From positions 1 through 62,356 of IMG/VR virus record IMGVR_UViG_3300046000_004988: DNA of 62,356 bases; one strand, written 5' to 3'. The notes beneath the pieces were generated by a model. It worked only from the letters and a program-made list of their open reading frames with translations, had not been told where the DNA came from and ran no database searches. Made by a program: the position numbers and the translations under genes. The DNA comes from a virus. Lineage: Duplodnaviria; Caudoviricetes. Shown here piece by piece: positions 13,347 to 57,393 of the stretch; position 1 is the stretch's first letter, and each line of letters starts with the position of its first letter.

Positions 13347-13349
13347 GTG

Positions 13350-14465: not shown

Positions 14466-14701
14466 GGTTGAACTCCTTTCGCTTTGGTTATCACTGCAAG
14501 AGCGGGTTTCCAAGGTACCTTTGTGTCGCCTTCAATATACGGCAGGATGCTTTCCAATACCCCTAACATCTCAGCATTTTCGCGCTCAAGTTGGCGGGCG
14601 AAGTCTGCGGAGACTTCTTCAACCCAACGATACACGCTAGAGTTCTGGCCGGATGTGTCGCGTTTCTTTGCTACTGCATTTGTTCGTGGTGTTGGTGTCA
14701 T
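14462..14701 (-). CDS. TPRTDA-family small protein
   Basis: MTPTPRTNA...DFARQLERENAEML. Confidence 0.7.
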   Translation of the reverse strand: MTPTPRTNAVAKKRDTSGQNSSVYRWVEEVSADFARQLERENAEMLGVLESILPYIEGDTKVPWKPALAVITKAKGVQP

Positions 14702-14862
14702 TTTGTTAGATTGGTTTGATAAATAATTCGCCCGCCAATGTGGACCCCACTTTCCTGAGATTGTGGCACTGGCGGGCTGAAAGTTGTTTGGAGATCACCT
14801 CTGGGTCCAGCAGGGGTGTGGTTGATGTGTTGCTCAGGGTTGTGTGCTCGTCAACACTGTTT

Positions 14863-43300: not shown

Positions 43301-46300
43301 TCCTCGACTGGTTCCGTCACCGGACCCTTGCGTCGTGCCGACAGACTGATTGCCGCTAAACGCTGCACTTCTTCCTCCTCCGGATCGAGGTTTAATTCCA
43401 TCGCTATCCTCGTACAGGCTTGATGGAAGTCCTCGCTCCTTGATGTAGAGTCTGTTTGCTGCTGATCCGTAGTCTGGGGCGTCATCTTTTTGTCTGCTTC
43501 CGTGCTGTTGGTGAACGATCTTTTCATAGTACCATAGTAAAGCCTGCGCCTCGGCTGGAACAAGCGGAATCTTTGCCGTCCGGTTATACTTTTCGATGGC
43601 ATTGATCATGACTTTTCTGATCCATCGACGGTGGGTTCCATTCTTTGGGGCTTCAGCAAGAGTGAATCCATCAGCGATCTTGAACAGACCGTTCACAGCA
43701 AGGCGAATTGCATCGTCTTTTGGTGACAGGTTCTCTCTGTTTTCCTTCTTTTGGAAGTGCTTACCAAGAGTCTCAACGGTGAGCAGATCTGCCTTCTGAG
43801 GAATTCCAGCGATGGTGAATAGATCACCGTCATACTCTGCCAGGGCAGCATTGAGCCGAGACCAGGCTTTGGTTAGCGTGCCCTTGTCGACCCTAACTAA
43901 CTGTGTGCCCATCATCCTTCCAATGGTTCTCATGAACCACCTGTCCATGGTGATGGTGGAGAAGTCTCCGGACATGTTGTTGAAGAACGATCCCAGCTTT
44001 GGACCAAAGATCAGAGAGAATGGGACGATCTCGTCGATGAGTTCTCCAGTGGTGATGCCAAGGATTTCCTTCTTGTCCCAGAGGTGCATCTTCCGCAGTT
44101 CATTTCGCAGTTCTTTGACTGTTCCGGTCTTGTTGAGGAAGTCACCAAGGTTGCTGAATCCACCGAGATGTTCAGCCATTTTGTCTGCAAGTGCGAGATG
44201 CTCCTCAACCGCTTCTGCCCTGGTCGATCCACGTTTGGTTGCACCAGCCAGTTTCCCGCTCTTCTTCCAGTGCTTGTAGACTTCCCAGGCATCCACGGTC
44301 TGCGTGTTCACATCAGCGCCATTGCTTGATACAGCAAGCGTGATTAGCAGGGCTGCACGATTGTCGGGTTTAACCAAATCTGGGTCAAGCTGAGTGAAGA
44401 TATTCATTGCCATCTTCAGTCTGCTTTCATACCACGAAGCAAATTTCGGGAACTCGAATGATGCACGGTTCAAGACTTCGAGCATCCTGTCTCCTGCGTT
44501 GTTCACATTGCCGCCTGGACGAATGGACGTCTTGATGAGTTTGCGGTAAATCTGAGCAATGGTTCTGACCTTTCCTCCTTCGAGCCTCGACGTGATGACG
44601 GATGGCATCTTCTTTTTCAGGTCAAGAACCCTGTCGATCTCAGCAAGGGCTGGTGCTGTCTGGCTTGCTGGTGCCGCCATTGGCTGGATCTTGTTGTCCC
44701 AGTCCATGTTGACCGAGAAGATGATGTTTCCAGTCGGTGTCTTGACGATGGTGTAATTGTCGTCCGGTTTCTTGTCGAAGATCGTGACGTCCTGAGCGGG
44801 GTTGTATGACCCGTCAGGATATACGAGACCCTCGGTGGTCAAAACGCTCTCCTGGCCGTACTGCCGCGCCAATGCCGCCGCCTTCTGCACGGACATGCCC
44901 TGGTCGATCACGATGAATGGTTTCTCTGGGTAGCCATAGTGACCATCGACCTGCTTGTGGTCCAATGTGTCAGATTGCAGAGACTTCATCAGACCACGGT
45001 TGAGGATGGCATTACGGAGGTCTGACTCACGCTTCTTGTTGGGGTTCTCGGCAGTGAAGATTGCCCACCCTGGCTTGTTGATGATTTCCTTGATGCCTTC
45101 AGCTGTGTCGAAGTCACTCAGTGTTGCTGGGTCTGACATCGGACCCGCCATCGGTTGAACGATTCGTGGTGTGGCTTGTGTGGCAAACTCTGAGTCAGTG
45201 CTCTGGAGGTTGCTCGTGAACTTCGAGAGTGTGTCGGCACTGTCTGATGCGACATAGCCACGGAAGTTACCACTGCTCCAGAATTGAGTGACATGCTTGA
45301 AGTTAGACCTGAGGACGTCTTCCATCTCCCAATGGGCGACCTGAAGAGCTGTCATGCCCTCAACCTGATCTCCACCACTATTGAGAACAGCATCACGCTT
45401 TTGCTTTAGTTGCTCGACGGTGTAGTGACGTGACTTCCAGTCGAGATCCTTCTTGCTCTCGTTGGCATCGAACACGTCTTTGCGATCTCCGAACTTCTGC
45501 TCGAAGATGGCAATGCCTTCTGGCTTCATCAGTTCCTTCACACGCATCACCTGTGCGTTGCGAGCATTGGAGATGAATTGGAAGACCATCGCTTCATGGA
45601 CGACATCGAACTTGCGTCCTTTCGGATCGAAGAACTTGACGTCGGTACCATCGTCTTCCGTCCATGCTGTCTTGCCAGCATCTTCCTTGGACCCGAATGC
45701 AGACAGATCGAATTCGGCACCTTCAACTGAACCCTTCGATTTGAAGGTCTGTTCCATGGATGTGTTCGGGTCAATGCCGAGTGTCTTGATCTTTCCTTTG
45801 GAGAGTCCGGTGATTGCCTTGTTGAGGGCACCTTCTGAAGAACCGATGTCGAGCATGTCGGCACCACTATCTCCGAACGTCTTAACGATAGCTGATCCAA
45901 CGACTGCCTGGACCTCATCGTAGCCTGGGATGGATGTTGCAATGTGGTCATCAAAGTTTCCACGGAATCTGTATCTGGCGATCTGGAATGCCTTTGATGA
46001 TGGGTCGAGATCAATGGCTGGAACGTAGTCTCCAGTCGGCTTGAACTTATCCTCAGCACCCTGTGTGACTGATGCGAAGAACTTGGCAAAACTGCGACCA
46101 TCTCCCCTCAAATCTTTGGAACCAGTGACCTCTGTTCTTGTTCCTATCGCTTTGTCGATAAGAGATTGTGGGAAGAGGTACGTCTTGCGTGGAGCATAAC
46201 CACGTTTGCTGAGAGGAATGAAGTCCTTGTCGCCCTGCACTGGGAGAGATCCATCCTCACGACGGAGATGCTTGCCAGCATTGAACCATGCGTTGTATGC

Positions 46301-49300
46301 CAGAGTCTCAAGAGCGAGTGCTGGCATAGCTTCCTTGGAATACATGGCGGCATGGTCCTGGAATGCCTGGAACTCTCCATGTGTGGAGAATGACCTTCCG
46401 TTTGATCCATGACCGAATATGTCGTGAACTGCCCTGAACAGGTCATTGTAGATGATTGGCTTGCCGTTTATGACGATACCGGACTGCTCAAGCGGAGGAT
46501 AAGCCTCTGCCTCTTGTGTTGCATTGTCACCGAGTCCGTCACTTGTCTTGAAGTAGAATAACCTTTTGTTGTTACGAACGTCATCGACCATTTCTGCACT
46601 GTCCTTGTATGGAGCACCTTTCCCTTCCCATGGCTCAATGCGATAACCTGCTTTCACCAAGGCTTCATATTGCTCCCTGGTCTCACGGTTGAATGCATTG
46701 TACGAATCGCGTGTTGCTTGGTCGATTCCTGCTGGGGCTGAGTCATGGTAGTCTGCAATCTCCTTGGAGATCTCTTCATTGAGCTTGGACTTGATTGGGG
46801 TGTTGGTACGCAGGAATTGATTGCGAACATCTTGGACTCCTGGGCTCCCTGATGCTGGTGCAGCCATAGGTTGAATGGTGGAACCAAGATCCTTCGCTTC
46901 ACCCCGTGGGTCGATCCGGCGCAAGTCAGCAATGGCTACATCATAGACCTTCTTGGCCTGCTTGCCTGCCTGCGTGTTCTTGAACATCATTTTCTTCAGC
47001 GTGGACACTGCTGCTGAGAAGAGGGATGCGATTGCTTCGAGTGCAGCATTGCGTTTGGCTGGTGTCTTGTTTCCAGCCATGGCTTGCTCAGTCAGACCAT
47101 TGTAGTGCTCCTTCTGCATGACCATGCGGCGGAACTCTGAGCCGATGACATACTTCCGGTTGCCGTGGCTCGTGTAGATCGACTTCACATACTTGATCTG
47201 CTCTGGCGTCATCATGCCGTAGATGCCATCGAAGAAGTCAATGTGATACTGTCCGCTCTGGATGTATTTGTCGGTCATCTTGTGACCCTGCTTCATCATC
47301 TCAGCGATGAGTGCCTTGTCTTCGAGCGCATGGATCATTTCTTCGCGCATTGCGTCGATGATCTGACCAGGACTCCATTCAGCCATGACCATTGGGTTGT
47401 ACTCGATGTAACCACCACGACGCTTGCCACCTTCACTCACAACGTAGTGGGCAGAGACAGATGAGAAACTCGGCACAAGATCGACTCCGATCTCTTTGAG
47501 CATTGCTCCGAAGTTGTCGTTGACGTGCGCTTTCACCAGGCTGGATGAACCGATTGGCTTTGATCGTGCTTTGGCAACCTTTGCTGCCCTCTGTGCATCG
47601 ACGTCACCGCTCGTGATGTTCTGCTGTGATGCAACGAATGCTGCGTTGATCTCAGAGATCTTCTCTGCCATCCACTCTTTGTCCGCCTCATCAGAGATCG
47701 ACTCCATGATGTTGGTTAGGCGAGCAATGATTCTCTTGATGAGATCAACGGCACTGCGGAAGAACTTGGTGTTCAGGAACATCTCCTCAGATATGCCTTT
47801 GCCGTGCCTGTTCTCCAGGTATGCCCTGAGATATTCATTGCCCCACTGGCTATCTGATCCGAGCACGTCGGTCTTGCCTTGTGAGTATGCAGCCCTGAAC
47901 TCGTCCTGGGCTTGCTCCGTGAGACCACGCCAGAACTTTCCTGCCTCGGCTGGTGTCATGACAGTGTCGATGACTGTGTGGAGGTATTCATGGAAGAATC
48001 CACGGTCCACGAACTCCTGCATGTCCTTTGCTGGAAGTGCTGCGAGTGACTTGATGAATGTGCGTGGAGCGATGTAGAGTGTATTACCCTGGACATACAT
48101 GCCACCACCATCAACCTCTGTGTCGAGTACCACAATCTTGTCGAAACTCGCTTCGAGCGTTGGCATGTGCTTCTTCAGTGCCACGGCAATCATTGTGCCC
48201 AGGCTAGCGTAGAACTTGGCGTCATCCTTGTGCTTGCCCTTGATGAGGTTGGCGATGACCTCGTAGACCTGCTGCACGACTGTCTTGTCAGACCCAGACT
48301 CATCAGGTTGCGTGAGTGTCTGCGTCATCAGCATTTCTCCGCGCTCTGTCTGCTGTGCCAGTGCGTTGATTGCCTCCTGCTTATCCTTCGCCTGATCGGC
48401 TAGTATTGTCAGAGTCCTGCCCCTGGTGGTCCTGATCGTCCACTGTGGTGCTGCTTTCTTAGACTCTGGTGCAGGTCGCTTGCTCTGCTCATCTGCTGGT
48501 CCAGATTCGGGTCCGACATCCGACCCAGCGTTTGTGGCTGGTTGCTGCTCGTCTGGTTTGACGTCGTCTGTGGTAGTGGAATCCGTTTGACCAGTTCCAG
48601 GAGGATTTCCAGCTTGAGTTGTAGGGGCGTTTTCATTGGTTGGTGTTTGAGTTGGGCTGGTTGTGGTGGTTGCTCCATCGACAGTGGTGTCAAGCATTTC
48701 AGTTGCAGACTCTGACAGGTTTTTCAATGCAACGATTGCGGCAGGGCGGGCATCTGCAAGACTGACTCCGGTCCTCACGATGCTGCTAACGATTAGATCG
48801 ACAATTTTACGGATGGAAGACCTGGCTTTTGGGGTCCAGCGACCATTTGCGTATGCAGCCATTGCTTCGATCACCTTGGCTCGTGCTGAGAGTTTGGAGT
48901 AGCCTTTGTAGAACGACTCACCGTTGATGCCTTGAGCCTCTCTCTCTGCCTTGTTCAGCAGTTCCTGGTTTTCCTGAATAACCAAAAGTGCTGCGGCATG
49001 ATGCATCTCTTCGTTGACGAGAGCTTCTCTGGACTCTGGTGTCTTCTTGATCTTGGCGATGTTGTCAGAGATGAACACGACGACTGGCTTGCCGTCCTTG
49101 ATGGTTACAAGTGCTGACCTGCCCTTGTTCTTTAGAGCGGCACCGATGAAGTCTGCTGCCTCTTTGTCGTTCGTGACAGTGACTGTCTGAACTCCTCGTG
49201 AATTTAGGTTAGACTCACGAGCCTTGGCTTTGTCTGAGATGCCGTTGAAGACTGGATGAGCGAGTGCCGACTGAGTTGGTGCTGGTGCTGCTTCAGTCTT

Positions 49301-52300
49301 TGCTTTGGATTGTGGCGTTACGACCTGACCTTTGGAGTAGACCAACTCGTACTTGCCTTCACCCACATGCTTCCACACGTCGACGTTCTTCGCGTCTAAC
49401 GAAGTTTGATGATTGCCCGCTGCGTCCGTTGGGAACATCGTCTTGCCCTTCGAGTGCCTGCCGGATTTCGACGGTTGCAACGATGGGTCAGTTGTCGTGA
49501 TGATGTAGTGATTTGGGTTCTGCCTGGCATAGTGCATTGCTGCTGCACCTTTCGCAAAGGACGGGAATGCCGTTGGTCTCTCTTTGAGACGCTCTGCAAG
49601 TGTGACCCCACCCTTGCTGTTTCCATTCGTTCTCACAAGTCCGCTCTTCACGATGTCCTCGAATGCAGCATCTCCAGTGACGATGCGGTAGTTCTCGTCT
49701 GGGTTGGCGAAGTCTGCCTCTGTTCGAGTGGTGCCAGAACCAGGGCTTGAACCTGGACCTCCCGCTTCATCTACTGTTGGCGCAGACCCCGAAGACGGAA
49801 TCGAACCGTCACCTTCAGATTTGCCGTCTGACGAGTTGCCTGTTTCTCCATTCGGGCTTGTTGCCTCCGCTCCTGATGTCGGAGATGGGGCGGAATCTTG
49901 CTTGGCTTTGGCTTCAGCATCAGCCTTGGCCTGGGCTTCAGCCTGCGCCTTCTTGGCGGCACGATCTGCTTCCTGCTGCTCGACGTCACGAGGGAAGTAT
50001 GTCTGACGCAGTCCAGGGGTCGCCTGGGCTACTTGAGCGAGACCTTCTTTGGTCCATGTGACCTCTGACCCATCTTTGACAGCAAGTGGTGCTCCTGACG
50101 CATCTGTTGCTTCCATGGCGAGTTGGTCACGCTGAGTGAGCGGTTGACCCGTCAGCACCTTCATGGAGGCAGTGATGAAGTCCTTCATCTTCTGATCTCC
50201 AACTCCACCGAGTTCCGTGTGGGCTTCGTATGCCAACTGGATCGCTCTGTTGCGACGACCAATGGCTTCGATGAATGCAGCTTCAGTCTGTGGCGTTGCG
50301 ACTCCCTGGTCCTTTTCCGCGAAGTACTTCTGGGACAGTTCCATGATCTCCTTGTCGCTCTGCTGGCGCTCTGCCGGATTGATGAACGACATGATGCCGC
50401 GAACGTCGTCGAGTTCGATTGGAGTCTGTGGGTTCTGCTTGTTCCAAAAGTTCACGAAGCCGAGTTCACCTTTGCGGATAGCATCCTTCTGTTTGGCTGC
50501 ATCAAAGATGCTCGACACGATTGCTGCTGACCCACCGATGAATGAGGCGAACAGACCACCCATGCCTTCCGTGACTGCGTCATTCCAGATCTTCTCTGTT
50601 GATCTGGCTTCATTTAGCAATCCTGAGCCGACACCTTCCATGCCTTCTGTGACTGTGCCGACACCGAGACCTTTGACTGTCTGGACCGCTGCATTGCGGA
50701 CTGTTGATCCTGGGACTGTGCCTGCCTGCTTGGCAATGGTGCCGAGTTCGTCCATGCCCTTCATCACTGAGTCGATGATTTTGTTAGCCGAGTTTGCCGC
50801 ACGACCAACATTCTTCGCTAATTTGGCGCTCTTGCCTGCTGCTCTCAACACGACCTGGGATGATGTGAGACCTTTAAGAAGACCATAACCAACGATGTCG
50901 CCTGCTGCCTCAACCATGAACTCACCAGGGTTGACCGAGATGCCACGAGCGGACATTTCCAGGACTGCGTATGCATCCGAGTTCTTGATGGTGCCGTTGA
51001 CTGATGCGTAGCGTGCTGCCTTTGCCACGTTGTCCTGACCTTCTGGTGTCTGGTAGAATGCCTCACGCAGGAGCATGGCGATAGCCGGATCTCTGGTCTC
51101 GTGATATGCCACCATCAGTTGAGCAACAGGTGCCTGCTTGTTGCGGATGTCGTAGTACGAGAGTTTGCCAGACTTTTGGTTATCGTAGTGTGCCTTGATC
51201 TCAGCGTCCGTGAGTTTCGGATTGAGTTTCTTGAGTGCAGCGAGTGACTCAGTCTCACCCTCGGTGATCTTGTGCATCGAGCCTGCCTTCGACTTCAGCA
51301 GTTCAGCGAACTGGTCGATGGTGCCCTTGGTGAGATTCTCATCCTCGATGGCATCAATGAGTGCGTCGACGGTATAACCAACTGGTGAACTAGGAAGCAT
51401 GCGCTCAGACATGTATTTGTCCACCGCTGCCTTCTTCTCGGCTTCAGTCTGGAATCCACGCATGCCTCCACCACCGAATCCACCACCAGCAACCATGCCT
51501 GGAGCGACTGGACCAGTGATGTTGGTTTTGCGCGGGTCGGAATCCCGACCCATCCACAATCCGCTGAACAGGTTCTTGGCTTGCTGTATGCCAGTCTCGA
51601 CTGTGAGTTTGAGCGTCTCAGGCGTGAACACTGCCTGGAGTACGTTAGGTGCAGCCTTGCGACCCATGGCGAACTCATCCTGCCAGAGAATGATGAGATC
51701 CTCCTTTGTGAGTTTCTCGCCTGCCATCATTTTGGACTTTGCGTTGGCGATGTCAGCTTTGTCGAGCGGGTCTCCCAGGAACTCTTGCTTCACTGTGCCT
51801 TCCTCGAACACTCCAGCATCTTCTGCTGCCTGATTGAGGATAAATCCGATTGTGCGACCAGCAGCACCAACTGTGGTAGCCATGCCGAGCATCGAGCCTG
51901 TGACATTGCTGCCCGTCTCACTGACTCCAGACCAGAATCGTTGTGCCAGTGTGCTTTGACCTCCTGAGATCTTGTCTGCGGCGGCATTGAATGCATGAGG
52001 ATCGAAGTCGGGCTGATCCGAGTGACGGTTGCGGTACTCATTGCGCCATTCCGTGAAAAGTTCATCACGGGCAGCGACGAGCATTCTGTCAGTCACGTCT
52101 GCGGCTGGTGCTGCCTCATACTCCCTCAGACGCTTTGCTGCGTCGGTGTCTCCTGCCTTCCAGGCTTCGTAGGACGCATCCGGCGAGGGCAGGATGGGGT
52201 TACGCCCATAAACTGCCTGATCGAGCGTCCTGGCCTGCTGTAGGCTGATGACGCCCTGCTTGTACAGGAGGCGGGCATCTGGCATTTCCTTGTCCATCTC

Positions 52301-54142
52301 CTTGAGGACACCTGCCGACATGAGCTTCCGGCGCTCATACTCTCCTGCGCCCTTCCAGTTCTCCACCAGGGCGGAGAATTCATCCTCCTCCATGCGGCGA
52401 GACTTCCAGGTCTTGTCGATGGTGCTCGACACCATGGCTGGATCTTGCCCGTTCGGGTTCTTGTCTGCCGCTTCCTTGACCTGCTCAATCTGCTGGGCTG
52501 ATGGTTCGGCATACTCTGGCACACCGCTGAACGGGTTCTGACTGCGATACGATGGGGATGCCGTCATGCCGCCCGCTTTCTGCGACAGGATGACCTCAGG
52601 CAGTCCGAGATCATTGTGGACGACATTGCCGACCTGCTGTCCATCCACCCACACGCCACCTTTTTTGTCATCTTTTCCGAGTTCGGGCAATGTGACCTTC
52701 AGCGTCTCGTCAGTGTGGATGATATCGGTGCCAGTCGCCTTTGCCGCCTCCCGTGCTGCTGTAGCCTCAGGAGTCAACCAGGAGGCTGGTGTGGCATCAT
52801 CTGCCGCCTTCTGTGCTGGCGTGCGTCTGGTGGTCTTGTTCTCACCCTGCTCCTTGAATCCCCACTCGTCGGCTGGCGCATCTGTTCCGTCTTCGATGAA
52901 GTGCGTGTTGGTCGTGTTCTTGGCTACATGGAAGAATGCAGGCTTGATGTTGCCATGACGTGCCTCTCCGTAGCTTGGCAGGTTGAGTTCTGGAAGCTCA
53001 GGTGTGTCGAATACGCTGCCTCCTTCCTTCTTGTCTCCTGTGATGTGAGGGAATGGCGAATTGAAGCCAGACTGTGGTTGGGACAGGTTCTTGATGTCCG
53101 GTGCCTTGACGACTGCTTCAGCCTGCTTCACCGGACCAGTGGCTGGGAGTGCTGAGACTGGGGTCGATGGTTTGGGTGCTGGTTTCTCTGCGTCTGGTGC
53201 CGTCTTTGCGGCTGACGGCATCGTGAGTGCTGCTCGACGGGAAGTCGTCATCAGCTTTACCTGCTCCAGGTTCTGACCCATCACGACTTTCTGTGTGGCA
53301 CGCTTGAAGTCTTCCTCGATTCCCCTGGCTGAGATTGCTGAGGCGTTTGCGGAGAGCTTCTTGGCAACCTGCTTCTTGGCTTCGAGATCTGCTGATGCTG
53401 CATCGACTGCCAGTTGGTCCACGGCACCTGAGTCCTTGTCTGACTGCAATGCTTTGAGCTTTGCGGATGACTCTGTCACTGCCTTGGATGCTTCGTCTTC
53501 TTCCGCCTTGGCAATAGCCTCATCCTTCTTGGTGGCAATGGTCTTCAGTTGGTTGTCTGCGTCGATCTGAGAAACGATGTTGGTGACTCGCGCCAGGTTG
53601 TCGTCGATGACCGCTTTGGCGTTCTTGGCATCTTCCTTCGCCTTCGTTGCTTGAGCTTTCTGCTCCTCTTTTGTCGATGGGGCGTTCGGATTCCAGTCTG
53701 GGTCTTTGCCAATAGCTTTCTGGCGATAGCCTGGAGGGGCACTGTATATCACACCATCCTTCTTGATGGTTGGTGCCTTGTCGTAAATCGACGACGTGGT
53801 GCCATCTTCCGAGATTAGAACAGGATCTCCTGTCTTTGGGTCAACAGGATGCTTTTGGCCTGAATGTTTGAGCAGGTATCCGTCGCCGGATGGTGCCTTG
53901 ATCTTGATGAGGTTCCCATCGGGTCCACGAAAGTGAGTCACTCGTGTTGGGGCGATGATCTCACTTTTGCTGACGCCTTCGTTGCTCTGCTCTTCTGGGT
54001 CGGAAGTCCGACCCGAAAGATACGCCTCACGTTCTGCTCGTGCTGCTGGTCCAAGACCCGATGACGTTGTGTCCATCGGTGATTGGTAGCGACGTGACTG
54101 TTGGTTGTAACCTCTGCGTGCTTGATTGAATGGGCTGGGCAT
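37337..54142 (-). CDS. Giant (5,601 aa) polyvalent / internal virion (ejection) protein
   Basis: Uninterrupted ORF; zincin-like motifs (EEMHH, HEYLH, EEMIH); MTase, SAM-lyase-like and HhH-like modules; C-terminal PFVRTPTNI segment resembling podovirus internal virion proteins. Confidence 0.88.
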   Translation of the reverse strand: MPSPFNQARRGYNQQSRRYQSPMDTTSSGLGPAARAEREAYLSGRTSDPEEQSNEGVSKSEIIAPTRVTHFRGPDGNLIKIKAPSGDGYLLKHSGQKHPVDPKTGDPVLISEDGTTSSIYDKAPTIKKDGVIYSAPPGYRQKAIGKDPDWNPNAPSTKEEQKAQATKAKEDAKNAKAVIDDNLARVTNIVSQIDADNQLKTIATKKDEAIAKAEEDEASKAVTESSAKLKALQSDKDSGAVDQLAVDAASADLEAKKQVAKKLSANASAISARGIEEDFKRATQKVVMGQNLEQVKLMTTSRRAALTMPSAAKTAPDAEKPAPKPSTPVSALPATGPVKQAEAVVKAPDIKNLSQPQSGFNSPFPHITGDKKEGGSVFDTPELPELNLPSYGEARHGNIKPAFFHVAKNTTNTHFIEDGTDAPADEWGFKEQGENKTTRRTPAQKAADDATPASWLTPEATAAREAAKATGTDIIHTDETLKVTLPELGKDDKKGGVWVDGQQVGNVVHNDLGLPEVILSQKAGGMTASPSYRSQNPFSGVPEYAEPSAQQIEQVKEAADKNPNGQDPAMVSSTIDKTWKSRRMEEDEFSALVENWKGAGEYERRKLMSAGVLKEMDKEMPDARLLYKQGVISLQQARTLDQAVYGRNPILPSPDASYEAWKAGDTDAAKRLREYEAAPAADVTDRMLVAARDELFTEWRNEYRNRHSDQPDFDPHAFNAAADKISGGQSTLAQRFWSGVSETGSNVTGSMLGMATTVGAAGRTIGFILNQAAEDAGVFEEGTVKQEFLGDPLDKADIANAKSKMMAGEKLTKEDLIILWQDEFAMGRKAAPNVLQAVFTPETLKLTVETGIQQAKNLFSGLWMGRDSDPRKTNITGPVAPGMVAGGGFGGGGMRGFQTEAEKKAAVDKYMSERMLPSSPVGYTVDALIDAIEDENLTKGTIDQFAELLKSKAGSMHKITEGETESLAALKKLNPKLTDAEIKAHYDNQKSGKLSYYDIRNKQAPVAQLMVAYHETRDPAIAMLLREAFYQTPEGQDNVAKAARYASVNGTIKNSDAYAVLEMSARGISVNPGEFMVEAAGDIVGYGLLKGLTSSQVVLRAAGKSAKLAKNVGRAANSANKIIDSVMKGMDELGTIAKQAGTVPGSTVRNAAVQTVKGLGVGTVTEGMEGVGSGLLNEARSTEKIWNDAVTEGMGGLFASFIGGSAAIVSSIFDAAKQKDAIRKGELGFVNFWNKQNPQTPIELDDVRGIMSFINPAERQQSDKEIMELSQKYFAEKDQGVATPQTEAAFIEAIGRRNRAIQLAYEAHTELGGVGDQKMKDFITASMKVLTGQPLTQRDQLAMEATDASGAPLAVKDGSEVTWTKEGLAQVAQATPGLRQTYFPRDVEQQEADRAAKKAQAEAQAKADAEAKAKQDSAPSPTSGAEATSPNGETGNSSDGKSEGDGSIPSSGSAPTVDEAGGPGSSPGSGTTRTEADFANPDENYRIVTGDAAFEDIVKSGLVRTNGNSKGGVTLAERLKERPTAFPSFAKGAAAMHYARQNPNHYIITTTDPSLQPSKSGRHSKGKTMFPTDAAGNHQTSLDAKNVDVWKHVGEGKYELVYSKGQVVTPQSKAKTEAAPAPTQSALAHPVFNGISDKAKARESNLNSRGVQTVTVTNDKEAADFIGAALKNKGRSALVTIKDGKPVVVFISDNIAKIKKTPESREALVNEEMHHAAALLVIQENQELLNKAEREAQGINGESFYKGYSKLSARAKVIEAMAAYANGRWTPKARSSIRKIVDLIVSSIVRTGVSLADARPAAIVALKNLSESATEMLDTTVDGATTTTSPTQTPTNENAPTTQAGNPPGTGQTDSTTTDDVKPDEQQPATNAGSDVGPESGPADEQSKRPAPESKKAAPQWTIRTTRGRTLTILADQAKDKQEAINALAQQTERGEMLMTQTLTQPDESGSDKTVVQQVYEVIANLIKGKHKDDAKFYASLGTMIAVALKKHMPTLEASFDKIVVLDTEVDGGGMYVQGNTLYIAPRTFIKSLAALPAKDMQEFVDRGFFHEYLHTVIDTVMTPAEAGKFWRGLTEQAQDEFRAAYSQGKTDVLGSDSQWGNEYLRAYLENRHGKGISEEMFLNTKFFRSAVDLIKRIIARLTNIMESISDEADKEWMAEKISEINAAFVASQQNITSGDVDAQRAAKVAKARSKPIGSSSLVKAHVNDNFGAMLKEIGVDLVPSFSSVSAHYVVSEGGKRRGGYIEYNPMVMAEWSPGQIIDAMREEMIHALEDKALIAEMMKQGHKMTDKYIQSGQYHIDFFDGIYGMMTPEQIKYVKSIYTSHGNRKYVIGSEFRRMVMQKEHYNGLTEQAMAGNKTPAKRNAALEAIASLFSAAVSTLKKMMFKNTQAGKQAKKVYDVAIADLRRIDPRGEAKDLGSTIQPMAAPASGSPGVQDVRNQFLRTNTPIKSKLNEEISKEIADYHDSAPAGIDQATRDSYNAFNRETREQYEALVKAGYRIEPWEGKGAPYKDSAEMVDDVRNNKRLFYFKTSDGLGDNATQEAEAYPPLEQSGIVINGKPIIYNDLFRAVHDIFGHGSNGRSFSTHGEFQAFQDHAAMYSKEAMPALALETLAYNAWFNAGKHLRREDGSLPVQGDKDFIPLSKRGYAPRKTYLFPQSLIDKAIGTRTEVTGSKDLRGDGRSFAKFFASVTQGAEDKFKPTGDYVPAIDLDPSSKAFQIARYRFRGNFDDHIATSIPGYDEVQAVVGSAIVKTFGDSGADMLDIGSSEGALNKAITGLSKGKIKTLGIDPNTSMEQTFKSKGSVEGAEFDLSAFGSKEDAGKTAWTEDDGTDVKFFDPKGRKFDVVHEAMVFQFISNARNAQVMRVKELMKPEGIAIFEQKFGDRKDVFDANESKKDLDWKSRHYTVEQLKQKRDAVLNSGGDQVEGMTALQVAHWEMEDVLRSNFKHVTQFWSSGNFRGYVASDSADTLSKFTSNLQSTDSEFATQATPRIVQPMAGPMSDPATLSDFDTAEGIKEIINKPGWAIFTAENPNKKRESDLRNAILNRGLMKSLQSDTLDHKQVDGHYGYPEKPFIVIDQGMSVQKAAALARQYGQESVLTTEGLVYPDGSYNPAQDVTIFDKKPDDNYTIVKTPTGNIIFSVNMDWDNKIQPMAAPASQTAPALAEIDRVLDLKKKMPSVITSRLEGGKVRTIAQIYRKLIKTSIRPGGNVNNAGDRMLEVLNRASFEFPKFASWYESRLKMAMNIFTQLDPDLVKPDNRAALLITLAVSSNGADVNTQTVDAWEVYKHWKKSGKLAGATKRGSTRAEAVEEHLALADKMAEHLGGFSNLGDFLNKTGTVKELRNELRKMHLWDKKEILGITTGELIDEIVPFSLIFGPKLGSFFNNMSGDFSTITMDRWFMRTIGRMMGTQLVRVDKGTLTKAWSRLNAALAEYDGDLFTIAGIPQKADLLTVETLGKHFQKKENRENLSPKDDAIRLAVNGLFKIADGFTLAEAPKNGTHRRWIRKVMINAIEKYNRTAKIPLVPAEAQALLWYYEKIVHQQHGSRQKDDAPDYGSAANRLYIKERGLPSSLYEDSDGIKPRSGGGRSAAFSGNQSVGTTQGSGDGTSRGDVAEMQPMAAPSSGITNESDAEFVESAVAEWQEVQEKARLASIEKNTIRSAWNQALKDAGPWYNKEKSPERTAKLEAVDSARSAMDKNEELVMARHEPIKGVYLRFGKLPEGGRSTNGYTGRKENGISVYNVRWEGGRWTIVDDGSGGATQESIIDDANRSILLVTGDDIDQGSDEEPVLSNIRVLKELNPNEIVPANWDAESWDEHHARGWTNQYMAAPKQNNIVEPGFYSHLQNVISVQLPDTLATKPGKTVKGRPIAERTITGKDGKILKVIRAGQEPDKVYPAQTVASQVKEIMEKAEVTSEEIKWSGIIPWLFTKESVTKEEVLDYLKTEGSTRFVERKLTERSRSFRDYMDIINDRMSLAGNYSKFEEDKKFIEERLDTWMSKGDPESIKYLQMITDLDIDEINPPGDGEIGYPQEKLRTIGGRNYREVIVTTSGQSEVTLKKGLEIKQMDSGRWNIWDSSTKGDGPGWVLAVGKETRDAVVGYARSDDMLAAENQQQFASSHYPEVPNYIAHMRIQDIDDGLLIDELQSDREKETRKKGLLEEQVAADKRRVEIENKGMSATPEEKKEWADIMSKHNGKLSGVPDAPFRRSAQWSMQLFKRALRDAVADGKGWIGWTSGEVQNKRSGLENRLSEVKMTKAFGGRDGRYYLTAYDHNFKRVIDTIIKPEELPNKIGNELAQKMNAMEWTTGKVEQANGSVTEETFKKLKGLDIKVGGKGMTDLYDKIVPTEVNEYLKQWGVKAEPSEITSTSGTTLSHRLNILNVSNFSIKNNINGTGKFGVWDFNLRRLVLDGVGEDGGNPISFDTKKDAEDWIVNGDREKIKISIWKVKITPEMRESIKDKGQPLFMAGPRHESPDAAESFLEQMMGELPSEAELEALRQMALSQKPGEKTIGDPDKANISKNEKIRVEYEVSQQIRSGDVSPEKVQDWIDQGRKMARNEDDVMNQVMSSYFEGGGFDSPELVFASAIVTARQFRRALQSGDPAQMREAHAMAYADGAGRSQTARAMRAMADPHKSPHERNMEYIAKLITTPSIRERIEIAAAPSPFAKQKQIAKLKAKLEEVKALLAESEKSRVRGKTHDDLIKQTKALSEEIKTQSEEKDRKTLIEEYTEARHKSVMDALAAQGISEEDIFVTPEERVNSHDSVPVREAMGMHPQEHQDAIRYIMRGYSHADVAVMTGLPRDVINTIHQDFRQKSLRGTIAKWVKRGNTLFDTIQSGIKYITGQSMAAPMPYNTAINNKLINAEVEIERQLNVLCPTAKQVNSGKMIVEIVDTKKNGQQVTIKVPYSPTDFRATYRVARAISISQSSAYDKMYEYWIMNLLSGPETNVVNVIGNILSSGIHILAQKPLETLWNIIFQDPNSAQMGEWKHIMRGIMPGIRDAFAMAALAFDSEADPIGHRYMDEPLEMTFDKAGQLDKVGRYRGPSIAGAKGRIFRLPGRSLMMVDSFMKALMGNIEVGAQAYRLGKQAQKAGLIGKSAADIESFIKAEVSTPGSKSWELAIDVATELAFQSETWMSAVARAFAQPNLGADQYQKKALDAAAAGNIKKMHDMRRAANAMMFIEHAMRFIFPFVRTPTNILRIGIRKSPIGAISLAAHVMTAFGKGATNIKNKKRFWANQDRATIVTLMAEQTQAWLTFATVFSMTEGDDDDDDKKLIIVGGRPSGTTSPGSRNEAYRNYGGTYMIIYRHNNGKETRVPFGRYDPIATVLGTTVDSIIEIKRMHKMRSLGLDGGSAMNATTNIIGSLMSQTEDKSFFQGYSNMVKTVDSLRRAGDAPSDLAYGFLKQIISGVVPNLLRQPLRNADPLVRDSKDKAELLYSALPLGIWAGPVVDYYGREVEKGGSPVSRIFIRAGNKATTREPAEEWITEWNNLHPDDKFQPTDLRANDYWVYGPKGERRMITDNSVKTTFEKAVGQEILRMHNNYVSGLKKSTSGKIISGKDNNVDLKNKLTNLASEAKKAVRTRFLKSPFASARNTID

Positions 54143-54147
54143 TCAGA

Positions 54148-54175
54148 AAGCTATGGTCCATTCCTTGGGTATCAA
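54148..54175 (-). promoter_or_regulatory. Putative leaderless late promoter of the giant gene
   Basis: TTGATA-N16-TAGCTT, 5 nt upstream of the ATG. Confidence 0.5.
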
Positions 54176-54260
54176 GCAGATTTCAGGCTAATATCCTGAT
54201 ATGGTATTGCGACACGAATCGCCCGAACGTGCGATGCATCGAACGCTTTGCGTCGATGAT

Positions 54261-54539
54261 CTATTTGTTCGGCTCACCAATCAGACGCCGCAGAAATCCG
54301 ACACCAAAAGCGCCGGGTATAGCCTCGCTGAATACATTATGCACAGCGATAGCTGGCTCATGAGTCGAGGTCTTTGCTTTAGCCCACGGGTTGCATTGTG
54401 GGCATGGCGTGTTCATAACGTCATCATCGGGTTCGGTTCCGGGGAGCATCCCACATCCGCCACAAGCCGAACAACGGCACTGCACCACAACGCCTATGGC
54501 GTTGCTGTCCATCGTGTTTTCAATCTCTGATTTCGCCAT
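54261..54539 (-). CDS. Cassette 1 ORF, CxxC zinc-binding hypothetical protein
   Basis: CSACGGCG...CPQC; start lies within the attC2 loop. Confidence 0.65.
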   Translation of the reverse strand: MAKSEIENTMDSNAIGVVVQCRCSACGGCGMLPGTEPDDDVMNTPCPQCNPWAKAKTSTHEPAIAVHNVFSEAIPGAFGVGFLRRLIGEPNK

Positions 54540-54553
54540 AGTCGTGTGTGAGT

Positions 54554-54805
54554 TTAGACGTTCGCCAGATATTCAGCGAGTGCTTGCCCGATCATCTTTC
54601 GGTCCTCCGCGCTCACTGGTTCCGTGATTTCCGAGAGTGCCACCGCGTGCAAGATCGGGCGTCCGTTGACGCTCAGAATCCATGCCGGGACGGTCACACC
54701 TTCGATGTTCGAGTGGAGATTCGCGCCGTGCCATTCCACGCGACCAACAGGCGAACAAGACGCTGGAGAGGAACCGCTCTTAACGGCTTTGTTTCGGAGT
54801 TTCAT
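54554..54805 (-). CDS. Cassette 2 ORF, hypothetical protein
   Basis: Start within the attC3 loop; stop within the attC2 R'-side spacer. Confidence 0.65.
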   Translation of the reverse strand: MKLRNKAVKSGSSPASCSPVGRVEWHGANLHSNIEGVTVPAWILSVNGRPILHAVALSEITEPVSAEDRKMIGQALAEYLANV

Positions 54806-55134
54806 GGTAGTTTGAAAGGTTTATTGTGTGGCGGAGTGCCGCTCCCAGAGCGGTCCCTCAGCTCAGCGTTAGCTGAAATCATTCGTTCCACTGCCGCCCA
54901 TGTCTCGGGAGTGTATCCAGGTGGAGGGTTGTCCACCGACCACCATGCCTCAATGTATGCTTTGCACTCAGCTTGATCCTCAGTCAGCGGAATGCCCGCC
55001 GACTCCAAGGCCTCGCAGAGCGCAAGGCCACAGCTGACAAGTCGTGTGAGGCAACGCCGCTCAGCTAACAAGGCGCTGGTGCCGACCATCTGGGGCGGGC
55101 TGTCGGACTTCGGTGTTTGGCTGGTTTCGATCAT
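54802..55134 (-). CDS. Cassette 3 ORF, hypothetical protein
   Basis: Start MIETSQ within the attC4 loop; ATGA overlaps at both ends. Confidence 0.65.
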   Translation of the reverse strand: MIETSQTPKSDSPPQMVGTSALLAERRCLTRLVSCGLALCEALESAGIPLTEDQAECKAYIEAWWSVDNPPPGYTPETWAAVERMISANAELRDRSGSGTPPHNKPFKLP

Positions 55135-55796
55135 GATTTTTGGACGGTTGAGTTTTCTCCGGTTTCGGCCCCAGAGGTCGGCACAGCTTTTGCGTTCTGT
55201 GTCTGCGCGATGAACGCCTCCACTTCTGCGATGGCGTCCTCGTCTTCGTGCTTCATCCATAGGTAGTCACTGCCCCATTGAGCTTTGCGGTCCTCGTATG
55301 CAGCCCACAGCACAGAGAGCATCTTGTCTCTCGCTGCCAGTTGGCGAGCGATGTCGCTTTTCGCGTGTAGGGACTCCGATGTCATCGCGCAGATGTGGCG
55401 GATGTAGTGCTCTCCGAGGCTTTCGGAGTCTTGGGCCGGATACACAGAGGCATCGCATGCAGGCAACGGCTCGGAGGTGGTCTGTTGTGTTTTCATAGTT
55501 ATTTGCTCGCGTTCCTGATCCGAGACGTTCGGCAGTTCAACAACGTAGTCATTCCAAGTCAAAAGACCTGGATCAACTTTGATTTTATCAAAGATTCTTC
55601 CACCGATAGCATAAGCATCGTCGTGAGATTCAGCTTCGATGAAATGAGATTCAAACGAGAGTGACCCTGGTCCAAGTTGCTTGAACGATTCAGGCAGAGG
55701 TGCCCCTGTCACTTTCTTGATGATCGAGTTGACCAGGTTGTGGTCCTCCAGGGTGACTTGGTTGACTCTTCCAATGATGTAGAGATACTTTTTCAT
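55131..55796 (-). CDS. Fusion of upstream gene (MKKYLY) with cassette 4 ORF (internal start MKTQQ at 55496)
   Basis: Reads through attC5 without a stop; the C-terminal part contains HICAMTSESLHAKSDIA. Confidence 0.6.
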   Translation of the reverse strand: MKKYLYIIGRVNQVTLEDHNLVNSIIKKVTGAPLPESFKQLGPGSLSFESHFIEAESHDDAYAIGGRIFDKIKVDPGLLTWNDYVVELPNVSDQEREQITMKTQQTTSEPLPACDASVYPAQDSESLGEHYIRHICAMTSESLHAKSDIARQLAARDKMLSVLWAAYEDRKAQWGSDYLWMKHEDEDAIAEVEAFIAQTQNAKAVPTSGAETGENSTVQKS

Positions 55797-55800
55797 GGCG

Positions 55801-56079
55801 TTATTTCGGGACGACTTCGAGAGATGTGAGTAGGACTGCTGCGGCAGCATTTGAATCCTTCGCCCTTTTGGTTAGGAGTGTGGCTGAGTTGATAACGTTG
55901 CGAAGAGCGTCACGCAGGCTGAACGCTTTGCCGTGCGTGCCACAGAAGATGATCCTGGCTGGTGACGAGTGGTCACCGTATCCTGCTGTCTTGCAGCCGC
56001 ATGGATACACCGTCTGGGTGCGTCCATCATGCTGGACTGTGTGCGGGTCGTTTGCCCATGTTGTGGATTGATCGCTCAT
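55801..56079 (-). CDS. Hypothetical protein
   Basis: 92-aa ORF with YPCGC...FCGTH. Confidence 0.6.
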   Translation of the reverse strand: MSDQSTTWANDPHTVQHDGRTQTVYPCGCKTAGYGDHSSPARIIFCGTHGKAFSLRDALRNVINSATLLTKRAKDSNAAAAVLLTSLEVVPK

Positions 56080-56085
56080 GATGAT

Positions 56086-56421
56086 TTAGATGATTGCTGA
56101 GGTTCCGTAGATGTGCTGGACCAAGACGCATTCCTGGTTGAGCAGAAGTTTGATGATGTTGATGATGTCAGTGACCTTGTGCTCGATATTGGCAATGGGT
56201 GATGTGATTGCAACTTCGAGCGTGATGCTTGCCTCCTCGACGAGTTCATCAGTGCCTGTGTTGACCCATCCTCCGTGACCTGAAGTCTCAGTGTATCCGC
56301 CAAAGATTTTGGCGACCTCGCGACGAATGACCTGGATGGACTTCTCAGGAGTTGGTGCCGTGATGGATTTGCCGTCCTTGTCTTTCTCGATGCCGAATGT
56401 GAATTTGATGCTTGAGATCAT
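56086..56421 (-). CDS. SAM-lyase/DUF3574-like protein (putative anti-restriction)
   Basis: FGGYT...GGW...EEAS...LNQECVLV pattern. Confidence 0.5.
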   Translation of the reverse strand: MISSIKFTFGIEKDKDGKSITAPTPEKSIQVIRREVAKIFGGYTETSGHGGWVNTGTDELVEEASITLEVAITSPIANIEHKVTDIINIIKLLLNQECVLVQHIYGTSAII

Positions 56422-56483
56422 GATAGTAGTTGTTTGTGTTATTGAGTTGGATTTGCGCGTTACAGTCGCGCCCCTGGTTTTGA

Positions 56484-56633
56484 TTAGCTATGACGGTTGA
56501 TTTCGACCCGTGCATCTGGGTAGCAATCCTGAAACATTTTAGCCGTGGCGATCGCTCCATTAAAGTCGCGGTCATCGCTATTGAGGATAAATGATGGGGC
56601 GTTTGAAGGGCTGATTGTGAATGAGTATTTCAT
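56484..56633 (-). CDS. 49-aa hypothetical protein
   Basis: Manual translation MKYSFTISPSNAPSF...YPDARVEINRHS. Confidence 0.5.
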   Translation of the reverse strand: MKYSFTISPSNAPSFILNSDDRDFNGAIATAKMFQDCYPDARVEINRHS

Positions 56634-56662
56634 ATTCGTGTGGCGTGTGTGGTGGCTGAAAA

Positions 56663-56908
56663 TTAGTGACGTGGGTTTGGGAGGATGATTTCGAGCGATG
56701 TTGGGTTGTGACCCGAATCTGCAAGATTTTTTATTTCGCGTGCCAGGATCTTTTCGAGTGCCTCAGCCAGGTCTTCATCGACTTCGATGAATTCAATTTG
56801 GTTTGCCTGGAGTGTGTAACGCTCTGCGCCCTTCCAGATGCCATTGGCACCCTTGGTATAGGTAGTCTGGCGATTAGCTTCGTCGATTGGGAATGTGATG
56901 CTGGTCAT
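56663..56908 (-). CDS. Early hypothetical protein
   Basis: ATG at the end of the conserved promoter-leader repeat. Confidence 0.65.
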   Translation of the reverse strand: MTSITFPIDEANRQTTYTKGANGIWKGAERYTLQANQIEFIEVDEDLAEALEKILAREIKNLADSGHNPTSLEIILPNPRH

Positions 56909-56995
56909 ATTGGTATTTGGTCCGCACAGGGGTTTTGTCTGGCGTGAGGAGAGTATGGGGTCGGACTTCCGACCCGTCAAATAGTTTTTGTCAGA
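56903..56995 (-). promoter_or_regulatory. Early promoter-operator-leader unit, copy 1
   Basis: AAAAACTA-TTGACG-N17(palindrome)-CATACT ... GGACCAAATACCAATATG; identical to 58962-59053 except for one indel. Confidence 0.8.
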
Positions 56996-57393
56996 TTCGC
57001 TCTTTTCTTTTTGATCGTTCCCCTTGGGTCTGGGTTGATGCCAAACAATTTCCTGAGCTTCGCCACCGTGAGGCAGAGTCGCACCTTGTTCTTTGGGTCC
57101 AGGATCTCGATTGCTGAACTGATCTGGAAATCCTGGAGCGTTGGCTTTTTGAATGACCTTGGTCGTATCCGTGGCTTGAGGTCTTTCGCTTGCTGGTCCT
57201 CACTCCATTCGCCCATGACGAGGATGAGTGACGTGAGCGGTATCCAGGCGCATCTGCCCTCGCCTGTCACCTGTGCCTTGTATGACTCCCTGTTGAGTCC
57301 GGTGATGGTTCCTCGTGCTCCACCCCATCCGTGCCCGTTGACGGCAACACGGCATCCGAGAGAAAAGTCTTGGTCGTTGGTCCTGATGATCAT
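56977..57393 (-). CDS. KOW/SH3-like small protein with basic tail
   Basis: FSLGCRVAVNGHGW...RGTI...AWIPLTSL; paralog of 61267-61446. Confidence 0.6.
   Translation of the reverse strand: MIIRTNDQDFSLGCRVAVNGHGWGGARGTITGLNRESYKAQVTGEGRCAWIPLTSLILVMGEWSEDQQAKDLKPRIRPRSFKKPTLQDFQISSAIEILDPKNKVRLCLTVAKLRKLFGINPDPRGTIKKKRANLTKTI

What the first reader, a model, noticed from the sequence alone, without database searches (positions are those of the whole stretch)
54222..55533. Phage-borne array of integron attC sites with no integrase in the complete genome
Seen: five imperfect hairpins on the + strand with R''(..AAC), spacer, L'' ... L', spacer, R'(GTT..) layout and an extra unpaired base in L''. 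One example is AGCTAAC-AAGGC-GCTGGTGCCGACC...GGTCGGCACAGC-TTTTGC-GTTCTGT. They lie at 54222-54273, 54466-54566, 54750-54874, 55063-55200 and 55444-55533. The R'' and R' of one site often mismatch, but the two ends of each intervening unit match: GTTCGGCT/AGCCGAAC, GTTCGCC/GGCGAAC, GTTAGCTGA/TCAGCTAAC and GTTCTGTGT/ACACAGA(GG). Established: this end complementarity is the scar expected when circular cassettes are inserted by IntI at G^TT. The cassettes are 293-333 bp, and I recognise no tyrosine recombinase in this circular genome. Inference: the phage uses a host IntI in trans to gain and shuffle accessory genes at the early/late boundary. As far as I know integron arrays are rarely reported in phages.
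Basis: partly seen in the sequence, partly recalled or inferred. Interest (0 to 1): 0.92.

Follow-up and report, generated by a model that had tools for sequence, protein, structure and literature searches.

The report
Integron-type cassette array in lake phage
A virus of lake bacteria carries a row of four tiny swappable gene units bounded by the same kind of folded DNA sites that bacterial integrons use, and unusually its genes are read straight through those sites.

Summary
The observation largely holds. Sites 1-4 (54222-54273, 54466-54566, 54750-54874, 55063-55200, + strand) have the full attC layout: 7-nt AAC box, 5-nt spacer, stem with bulged bases on the 5' arm, 5-6-nt spacer, GTT box. 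This is the geometry of real attC sites that I took from three integron-bearing phage records. Site 5 is degenerate.

A covariance model built only from class 1 and Shewanella attC sites found 16 of 16 held-out Vibrio attC sites. The other sites scored below threshold.

Each R' box matches the next site's R'' box (4 of 4), as in real arrays. Contigs from other lakes carry unit 54267-54560 in unlike flanks, with breaks at the G of GTT. A distant relative has a different array at the same locus.

No tyrosine or serine recombinase was found in this record, and no tyrosine recombinase in five related records. Action of a host IntI is inferred, not shown.

Phage attC clusters without an integrase were published in 2023. 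New here: the ORFs lie on the attC bottom strand and run through the sites.

The parts
54222..54273 (+). attC-like site 1, 52 nt, the terminal site next to the giant gene. Layout: CCCGAAC, 5 nt, stem of 3 bp, bulged G, 6 bp, bulged A, then 6 nt and GTTCGGC.
   Evidence: Found by my rule scan. Arm alignment. Fold z -3.19. Homologous short sites in L002, L020 and L025 show compensating stem changes: CATCGA/TCGATG, CACCGA/TCGGTG and CAGCGA/TCGCTG.
54268..54560 (.). Cassette A (293 bp): the core of gene A plus its own attC (site 2).
   Evidence: Present with unlike flanks in contigs of runs X6 (54266-54560, 0 differences) and X9 (54267-54564, 1 difference). Also in L025 (54267-54563, 85%).
54261..54539 (-). 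Gene A, 92 aa, Cys-rich. It ends ...GEPN|K* across the G^TT point.
   Evidence: ORF. Against L025, 30 of 44 differences fall at codon position 3. Family alignment.
54466..54566 (+). attC-like site 2, 101 nt. It holds the stop of B, the 5' leader, the ATG and the first 22-24 codons of A.
   Evidence: Arm alignment with three bulges. 96 of 98 positions are identical to L025, against 157 of 199 in the core. Present on its own in L016 and L017. Not hit by model R2.
54561..54868 (.). Cassette B (308 bp).
   Evidence: Ends GTTCGCC/GGCGAAC. Contig and locus breaks at 54559-54564.
54554..54805 (-). Gene B, 83 aa. It ends ...LAN|V*.
   Evidence: ORF. Relative L018 at 79% aa identity.
54750..54874 (+). 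attC-like site 3, 125 nt. The ATGA stop/start overlap of genes C and B lies in its loop.
   Evidence: The only R1 hit (19.2 bits) and the only R2 hit under default filters (18.8 bits, E 0.018) in the window, with these exact ends. Bulge pattern as in Shewanella site She5.
54869..55194 (.). Cassette C (326 bp).
   Evidence: Ends GTTAGCTGA/TCAGCTAAC, a perfect 9-bp pair. No relatives of protein C were found.
54802..55134 (-). Gene C, 110 aa. It ends ...SAN|AELRDRSGSGTPPHNKPFKLP*.
   Evidence: ORF and frame check.
55063..55200 (+). attC-like site 4, 138 nt: AGCTAAC-AAGGC-GCTG[G]TGCCGACC[A]TCTGGGGC ... GCCCCAGAGGTCGGCACAGC-TTTTGC-GTTCTGT. The ATGA overlap of genes D and C lies in its loop.
   Evidence: Best inverted repeat of the genome. 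Found by my rule scan. R2 gives 8.7 bits, E 8.7, with these exact ends when filters are off. The boxes resemble the cmlA1 and Shewanella attC sites.
55195..55527 (.). Cassette D (333 bp, or 317 bp if the right end is the GTT at 55511).
   Evidence: The left break lies at 55192-55198 in L002 and L005-L009, and at 55186 in L003 and L004, and at 55194 in an X3 contig. The right break lies at 55510 in L002, X3 and X1.
55131..55496 (-). Gene D, 121 aa from its own ATG. The upstream ORF runs into it in frame. It ends ...TQN|AKAVPTSGAETGENSTVQKS*.
   Evidence: ORF. 20 relatives were found. The 85-aa forms are the core only, and the others carry varied leaders and tails after TQN.
55444..55533 (+). 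Site 5: a degenerate or doubtful attC. It has no AAC box, its spacers are too short and it folds poorly.
   Evidence: Fold z -0.17 and +0.91. Found by neither the rule scan nor the model. Relatives keep ACACAGAAC at this place.

Best explanation
The stretch is a cluster of integron-type attC sites without an integrase. It has four good sites and one decayed site on the + strand. They delimit four cassettes of about 300 bp, lying between the small early genes and the 5601-aa virion gene.

Shown:
- The sites have the attC build: R box, unpaired spacer, L box, and two or three bulged bases on the R''-L'' arm.
- Each R' box is a hybrid that matches the next cassette's R'' box.
- At least cassette A occurs in other phage contexts, cut exactly at G^TT.
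- The ORFs lie on the attC bottom strand. Each starts inside its own attC, reads out through the L'' and R'' arms into the cassette body, crosses the junction as an in-frame AAC (Asn) codon, and stops in the neighbour's attC. Twice this stop is an ATGA overlap in the loop.

Inferred:
- The folded bottom strand is cut and joined by an integron integrase supplied by the host.
- This lets virulent lake phages swap translationally coupled early genes.
For: Layout:
- A rule taken from class 1 attC sites finds 7 of 7 of them. In both strands of the window it finds only sites 1 and 4.
- With the rule relaxed there are 21 hits in 169 kb of window plus loci, against 1-10 (mean 5.2) in 20 shuffles.

Model:
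- R2 was built from 22 class 1 and Shewanella sites.
- It finds 16 of 16 held-out Vibrio sites at 27-44 bits, and nothing outside that array at E<=1 apart from the array's own wrapped end at positions 1-99.
- In 116 kb of relatives its one hit below E 0.1 lies 360-440 nt upstream of G001's giant gene, on the strand opposite to the genes as here.

Geometry:
- The pattern 3 bp, bulge, 6 bp, bulged A is seen in aadA1 and Vibrio sites.
- The same pattern is seen in window site 1 and in sites of L020, L010 and L025. Site 3 matches a Shewanella site.
- PMC2727003 (passages) defines these bulges. It also reports that changing the first bulged G cost at most 2.7-fold.

Array signature:
- R' matches the next R'' at 4 of 4 variable positions in 4 of 4 window junctions, against 3, 3, 2 and 1 for its own R''. 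The class 1 array behaves the same way.

Mobility.

Constraint: the attC part is 96/98 identical to L025, against 157/199 for the core.

No recombinase.
Against: - Only site 3 is significant with my home-made model. Site 4 scores 8.7 bits, and sites 1 (as a whole), 2 and 5 are not hit. Real held-out sites score 27-44 bits.
- The R boxes are mostly GAAC/GTTC, not the usual TAAC/GTTA.
- The first bulge is C on the bottom strand, not the G that PMC2727003 calls conserved. The cmlA1 and estX sites share this, however.
- Older relatives break at the R'' end as well (L010, L016, L018) and inside core A. IntI crossovers do not explain that.
- In the X6 contig the letters after 54560 are not TT.
- No relative of protein D was found in 185,579 species genomes, and only a 27-aa piece of protein A. 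No link to a bacterial integron is therefore shown.
- I wrote the rule after seeing the sites.
Confidence: 0.6

Rival explanations
1. These are phage-own junction modules, not integrase substrates. Short conserved boxes (GSCGAAC / GTTCGSC) at gene borders serve as microhomology for general or relaxed homologous recombination between co-infecting phages. This would resemble the boundary motifs and the promoter/stem-loop cassettes of T4-type phages. The hairpins would serve the mRNA, by hiding start codons or coupling translation. The likeness to attC would be convergent.
For: - Breaks occur at both ends of the junctions and inside cores.
- Junction 2 moves on its own in L016 and L017.
- The motif GTTCGSC is enriched locally, with 5 of the record's 21 copies lying in 1.3 kb.
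- Stop/start overlaps and start codons lie inside the stems or loops.
- No recombinase was found.
- No bacterial integron carries these genes.
Against: - An mRNA hairpin or a homology box predicts that R'' pairs with its own R'. Instead R' matches the next site's R'' in 4 of 4 window junctions, and in G001 by my reading.
- The fixed spacers of 5 and 5-6 nt, and bulges only on one arm at attC positions, are not needed for either role.
- Identical 294-bp blocks end at the same base in unlike flanks that share at most about 8 letters.
Confidence: 0.22
2. The array is a relic. A piece of a host's chromosomal integron was picked up once by an ancestor, as in the Vibrio phages of PMC9892861, and is now only inherited and eroded. 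The sharing between phages would come from ordinary mosaic exchange of the whole region.
For: - Site 5 is decayed, and ORF E is fused in frame to gene D.
- L018 has GTA in place of GTT at the border of its core B.
- Model scores are low.
Against: - Single cassettes, not the whole region, are shared at 99.7-100% identity with unlike flanks.
- A relative with 37% identity in the giant protein has other cassettes at the same locus.
- All ORFs are co-oriented with the phage genes and overlap them.
- The attC part is kept at 98% identity.
Confidence: 0.1
3. Chance inverted repeats in a GC-rich stretch of small genes, chosen by eye.
For: The hairpin statistics alone are modest: 3 of 40 and 1 of 40 shuffles reach the observed values. 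There are 38 GTT...AAC 7-mer pairs genome-wide.
Against:
- Independent contig breaks fall on the GTT points.
- The same build recurs in G001, L010, L002, L003 and L025.
Confidence: 0.03

Closest known systems
Clusters of attC sites lacking an integrase (CALINs) in virulent phages. Qi et al. 2023, PMC9892861: abstract, section 3.4 and passages read. Supplements were closed.
   Same: Arrays of two or more attC sites with small cassettes in phages that encode no integron integrase. In that work 5 of 6 tested phage sites were recombined by IntI1. Here too the sites are co-oriented and less than 4 kb apart.
   Different: - Here the ORFs lie on the attC bottom strand and run through the sites.
- The cassettes are only 293-333 bp.
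- The R boxes are mostly GAAC/GTTC.
- The array sits at a conserved place before a giant virion gene.
- No recombination assay was done.
- I could not see their supplementary list of 17 arrays, so an overlap cannot be excluded.
Cassette arrays of class 1 and chromosomal integrons. Comparators were read from MH445380, MK672802 and MZ568829.
   Same: The R''-spacer-L'' ... L'-spacer-R' build, bulged bases on the R''-L'' arm, variable loops giving sites of 52-138 nt, and an R' box that matches the next cassette's R'' box.
   Different: - No intI, attI or Pc promoter.
- In the comparator arrays most annotated ORFs run with the attC top strand, and the usual picture, recalled, is that they end before or at the attC. 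Here the start codons, leaders, tails and stops are inside the attC sites.
- The first bulge is C, not G, on the bottom strand.
Synthetic attC sites embedded in coding sequence. Nivina et al. 2020, PMC7439510: passages read.
   Same: attC hairpins that at the same time encode unstructured linker peptides and, in that work, still recombine. Here the leaders and tails encoded by the sites are Ser/Thr/Pro/Gly-rich and vary freely.
   Different: Those sites were designed and tested. These are natural and untested.
Promoter-early stem-loop (PeSL) cassettes of T4-type phages. PMC2839356 and PMC4122927: only the search listing and the start of the abstracts were seen.
   Same: Small genes of unknown function in a plastic phage region, bounded by repeated stem-loop motifs thought to mediate shuffling.
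   Different: As I recall them, PeSLs are similar copies of a promoter-plus-terminator motif lying between genes and acting through homology. Here the sites differ in sequence, share only attC-type boxes and geometry, and lie inside ORFs.

Membership tests
integron attC site | Inverse core R'' ending in AAC and core R' beginning with GTT, 7 nt each, at the two ends of a 45-200-nt imperfect palindrome. | tested here: met
   Sites 1-4 meet this. Site 5 lacks AAC. The fourth base is mostly G/C rather than the usual T/A.
integron attC site | Unpaired central spacer of about 5 nt on each arm between the R and L boxes. | tested here: met
   Spacers are 5 nt on the R'' side and 5-6 nt on the R' side in sites 1-4, as in the class 1 comparators.
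integron attC site | [quoted passage not shown] | tested here: met
   site 1 has 3 bp, G, 6 bp, A. Site 4 has G, 8 bp, A. Sites 2 and 3 have three bulges. All bulges are on the 5' arm of the + strand. On the bottom strand the first bulge reads C, not the G called conserved. The cmlA1 and estX sites show the same.
integron attC site | Recognised by an attC covariance model. | tested here: inconclusive
   The models were home-made, not IntegronFinder's. Site 3 scores 18.8-19.2 bits, E 0.017-0.065. Site 4 scores 8.7 bits, E 8.7. The rest are not hit. Held-out Vibrio sites score 27-44 bits.
integron attC site | Bottom strand recombined by IntI at G^TT of R'. | not testable with these tools
   Indirect only: block ends at 54266/54267, 54559-54564 and 55194 in other contigs, and hybrid R' boxes.
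CALIN (cluster of attC sites lacking an integrase) | Two or more co-oriented attC sites less than 4 kb apart, with no intI nearby. | tested here: met
   Four sites on the + strand within 1 kb. No PF00589 match at E<=1 in the whole record. Qualification: only one site passes my model's threshold.
complete integron | An intI gene with attI and a Pc promoter next to the array. | tested here: not met
   No tyrosine recombinase in six frames in this record, and none in 5 related records.
PeSL-type regulatory cassette | Repeated, mutually similar promoter plus stem-loop motif between genes (feature recalled from memory). | tested here: not met
   The five sites share only short boxes. They lie inside ORFs.

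The most novel reading that the evidence does not exclude
A phage-adapted integron cassette format. The attC sites are written into coding sequence, so that each cassette brings its own start codon and leader, while the neighbour supplies the tail and the stop. An in-frame AAC sits at the joint in 5 of 5 window junctions. Any cassette could then be plugged into a translationally coupled early operon by a borrowed host integrase. A pool of such mini-cassettes would circulate among virulent lake phages only. This would be a natural counterpart of the engineered coding attC sites.
Probability: 0.35. Interest if true: 0.85.

Novelty: new variant of a known kind. Interest (0 to 1): 0.72.

Why it matters
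If an integrase does act on these sites, virulent phages without any recombinase of their own would use a host enzyme to shuffle early genes, which are probably host take-over or counter-defence genes. Integron recombination sites would then be shown to live inside open reading frames in nature, something so far shown only by design (PMC7439510). It would also give a concrete mechanism for part of the gene-sized mosaicism of phage early regions, and a locus (before the giant virion gene) where cassette turnover can be followed in lake metagenomes.

Tried and rejected
Searches that found nothing useful:
- Rfam on 53500-57000 gave only four chance-level matches, E 1.7-2, far below the gathering scores.
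- blastn of 54000-57000 against 50,697 phage records gave no match.
- Relatives of the giant protein's first 500 aa and of protein C in IMG/VR: none.
- Protein D family in species genomes: none.
- Pfam and PHROGs gave no function for proteins A-E.

Ideas dropped:
- MITE-like elements, because the junctions are unlike each other inside.
- A shufflon or invertase system, because there is no recombinase and the blocks are not inverted.
- An intrinsic terminator for site 1, because no T run follows it on the gene strand.

Steps that failed or could not be done:
- The MAFFT alignment of 16 phage sites (A9) misplaced the 5' ends, so I built no third model and ran no count of structure pairs. The covariation statements rest on pairwise arm alignments.
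- The Verrucomicrobia MAG contig L028 shares only a 27-aa piece of protein A. Its best integron-integrase score is 109.8 bits against a cut-off of 265. This is no basis for naming a host.
They say nothing about expression or habitat.
- The contigs laid are assemblies. Their linkage across a shared 295-bp block could be chimeric, so I use only the places where they diverge from the window.
- The supplements of PMC9892861, which list the 17 phage arrays and the attC coordinates, were closed.
- One literature search for inverted or antisense cassettes listed no paper holding those two phrases. That is not proof of absence.
Full report
What is there

The window is an IMG/VR virus record of 62,356 bp with direct terminal repeats. 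CheckV's completeness estimate is 67. All long ORFs lie on the - strand. The stretch in question sits between small early-type ORFs and a 5601-aa ORF (37337-54142, -) that is followed by a portal gene.

On the - strand it holds four small ORFs:
- A: 54261-54539
- B: 54554-54805
- C: 54802-55134
- D: 55131-55496

B/C and C/D overlap as ATGA. An upstream ORF (E) runs in frame into D.

These are real genes by two lines of evidence. Against the relative L025, 30 of 44 differences in A fall on third codon positions. D has 20 relatives with protein-like conservation.

The observation

The five stretches are as quoted. As single strands, sites 1, 3 and 4 fold better than shuffles (z about -3 on at least one strand), site 2 weakly, and site 5 not at all.

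My inverted-repeat scan puts 55075-55187 first in the genome. However, 3 of 40 shuffled genomes reach that score, and 1 of 40 reaches six stems in 1.4 kb. Hairpins alone are therefore modest evidence.

The end pairs are real. Three consecutive units of 206, 197 and 202 bp are bounded by perfect GTT...AAC inverted repeats of 7-10 bp. Genome-wide there are 38 such pairs.

The motif GTTCGSC occurs 21 times in the record, against 13.5 expected. Five of those copies lie here.

No tyrosine or serine recombinase domain is found in six frames. No tyrosine recombinase is found in five related records either, one of them rated 100% complete.

Test against real attC sites

PMC9892861 names phage records that carry integrons. 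I fetched three of them and read out 25 attC sites: 7 class 1, 9 Shewanella and 9 Vibrio.

A simple rule encodes their layout: NNNNAAC, 5 nt, an L'' arm with one bulge pairing at least 8 nt with L', 5-6 nt, GTTNNNN. It finds 7 of 7 class 1 sites. In both strands of the window it finds only 54222-54273 and 55063-55200. I wrote this rule after seeing the sites. With the rule relaxed there are 21 hits in 169 kb of window plus loci, against 1-10 in 20 shuffles.

Covariance model R2 was built from 22 class 1 and Shewanella sites only.
- It finds 16 of 16 Vibrio sites it had never seen, at 27-44 bits.
- In the window its single default-filter hit is 54750-54874 (+), 18.8 bits, E 0.018.
- With filters off, 7 hits reach E<=10. 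They include site 4 with its exact ends (8.7 bits) and part of site 1.

The model test is therefore positive for one site and below threshold for the others.

Arm-by-arm alignment shows why I still read sites 1-4 as attC-type. All have 5-nt and 5-6-nt spacers, and all bulges lie on the 5' arm.
- Site 1, and sites in L020, L010 and L025, show 3 bp, bulge, 6 bp, bulged A. This is the pattern of the aadA1 and Vibrio sites.
- Site 3 shows the three-bulge pattern of a Shewanella site.

PMC2727003 (passages) defines these bulges as lying on the R''-L'' arm. It reports that they set strand choice, and that changing the first G cost at most 2.7-fold. On the bottom strand the first bulge here is C, as in the cmlA1 and estX sites of my comparators.

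Array signature

In real arrays R' is a hybrid: G from its own site and TTNNNN from the next cassette. It therefore matches the next R''.
- Class 1 array: next 4, 4, 4, 3, 4 of 4 variable positions; own 0, 2, 2, 1, 3.
- Window: next 4, 4, 4, 4; own 3, 3, 2, 1.
- G001's cassettes are likewise bounded by GTTAGCC/GGCTAAC, GTTCTCA/TGAGAAC and GTTCAGC/GCTGAAC, by my reading. One coordinate was off by one.

A hairpin kept for an mRNA role, or a homology box, would not give this pattern.

Mobility

Contigs of other lake-water runs were laid on 53900-55900.
- An 823-nt contig of X6 matches 54266-54560 with 0 differences.
- A 4024-nt contig of X9 matches 54267-54564 with 1 difference.
- Both have unlike sequence on both sides.
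- Further breaks lie at 54559, 54563, 55194 and 55510.
- Of 14 loose ends, 7 lie within 4 nt of the G of the R' boxes of sites 1, 2 and 4. Nine do if the GTT at 55511 is counted.

A metagenome contig (L025) at 85% identity carries the same block, 54267-54563, next to a different attC-like site. Between L025 and the window the attC part is 96/98 identical and the core 157/199.

G001 has a giant protein only 37% identical. It has a different set of three such units and a 48-nt terminal site directly before its giant gene. Its R2 hit of 17.7 bits lies on the strand opposite to the genes, as in the window.

What does not fit

Older relatives break at the R'' end too:
- L010 keeps only core A.
- L016 and L017 keep only junction 2, read in another frame after a 1-nt indel.
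- L018 keeps only core B.

Protein A is also mosaic inside its core. General recombination therefore acts here as well.

No relative of protein D, and only a 27-aa piece of protein A, was found in 185,579 species genomes. No host and no IntI is identified.

The unusual part

With + as the top strand, the ORFs are on the bottom strand.
- Each cassette carries its own 5' leader, ATG and a 15-24-codon leader inside its attC.
- The complement of GTT is read as an in-frame Asn codon at 5 of 5 window junctions.
- The tail and the stop come from the neighbouring attC.
- This explains the varied tails after PN and TQN in the families and the E-D fusion.

Designed attC sites can encode linkers and still recombine (PMC7439510, passages).

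Known or new

Clusters of attC sites without an integrase in virulent phages, recombined by IntI1, are published (PMC9892861). I rate this a new variant of that kind. Its features are coding, bottom-strand cassettes of about 300 bp at a conserved locus in lake phages. My confidence that these are attC-type sites bounding mobile cassettes and served by a host integrase is 0.6.

Noticed in passing
window 13300-14800: Direct repeats of 56 nt (14334-14389 and 14552-14607, 86% identical) and of 35 nt in three copies. Pieces of L002 and L010 match 13462-14609 at 85-98%. This is a second repeat and mosaic region shared with other lake phage contigs.
   Followed up: partly
window 55131-55796 (-): ORF E (MKKYLY...) runs in frame into gene D without a stop. 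In L002 the same 5' leader holds a TAA for an upstream ORF in another frame.
   Followed up: partly
L020 6838-7822 (G001:C1:56837-57821): A distant relative has three units bounded by perfect 7-bp GTT...AAC repeats and a 48-nt terminal hairpin site just before its giant gene. The cargo differs from the window's.
   Followed up: yes
L028 4842-5129: A contig of a Verrucomicrobia MAG encodes the C-terminal sub-module of protein A (81% identity over 27 aa) beside an excisionase-like ORF. The MAG's best integron-integrase score is 109.8 bits against a cut-off of 265.
   Followed up: partly
window 54100-55500 (-): No Shine-Dalgarno-like purine run precedes the ATGs of genes A-D. The 5' leaders are A/C-rich.
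   Followed up: no
window 56089-56421 (-): An early ORF has a weak S-adenosylmethionine lyase Pfam match (E 2.8e-4, 21.3 bits, below the cut-off of 28) and a PHROG of unknown function.
   Followed up: no
window 37337-54142 (-): A single 5601-aa ORF takes up 27% of the record. G001 has a counterpart at 37% identity over residues 41-1435.
   Followed up: no
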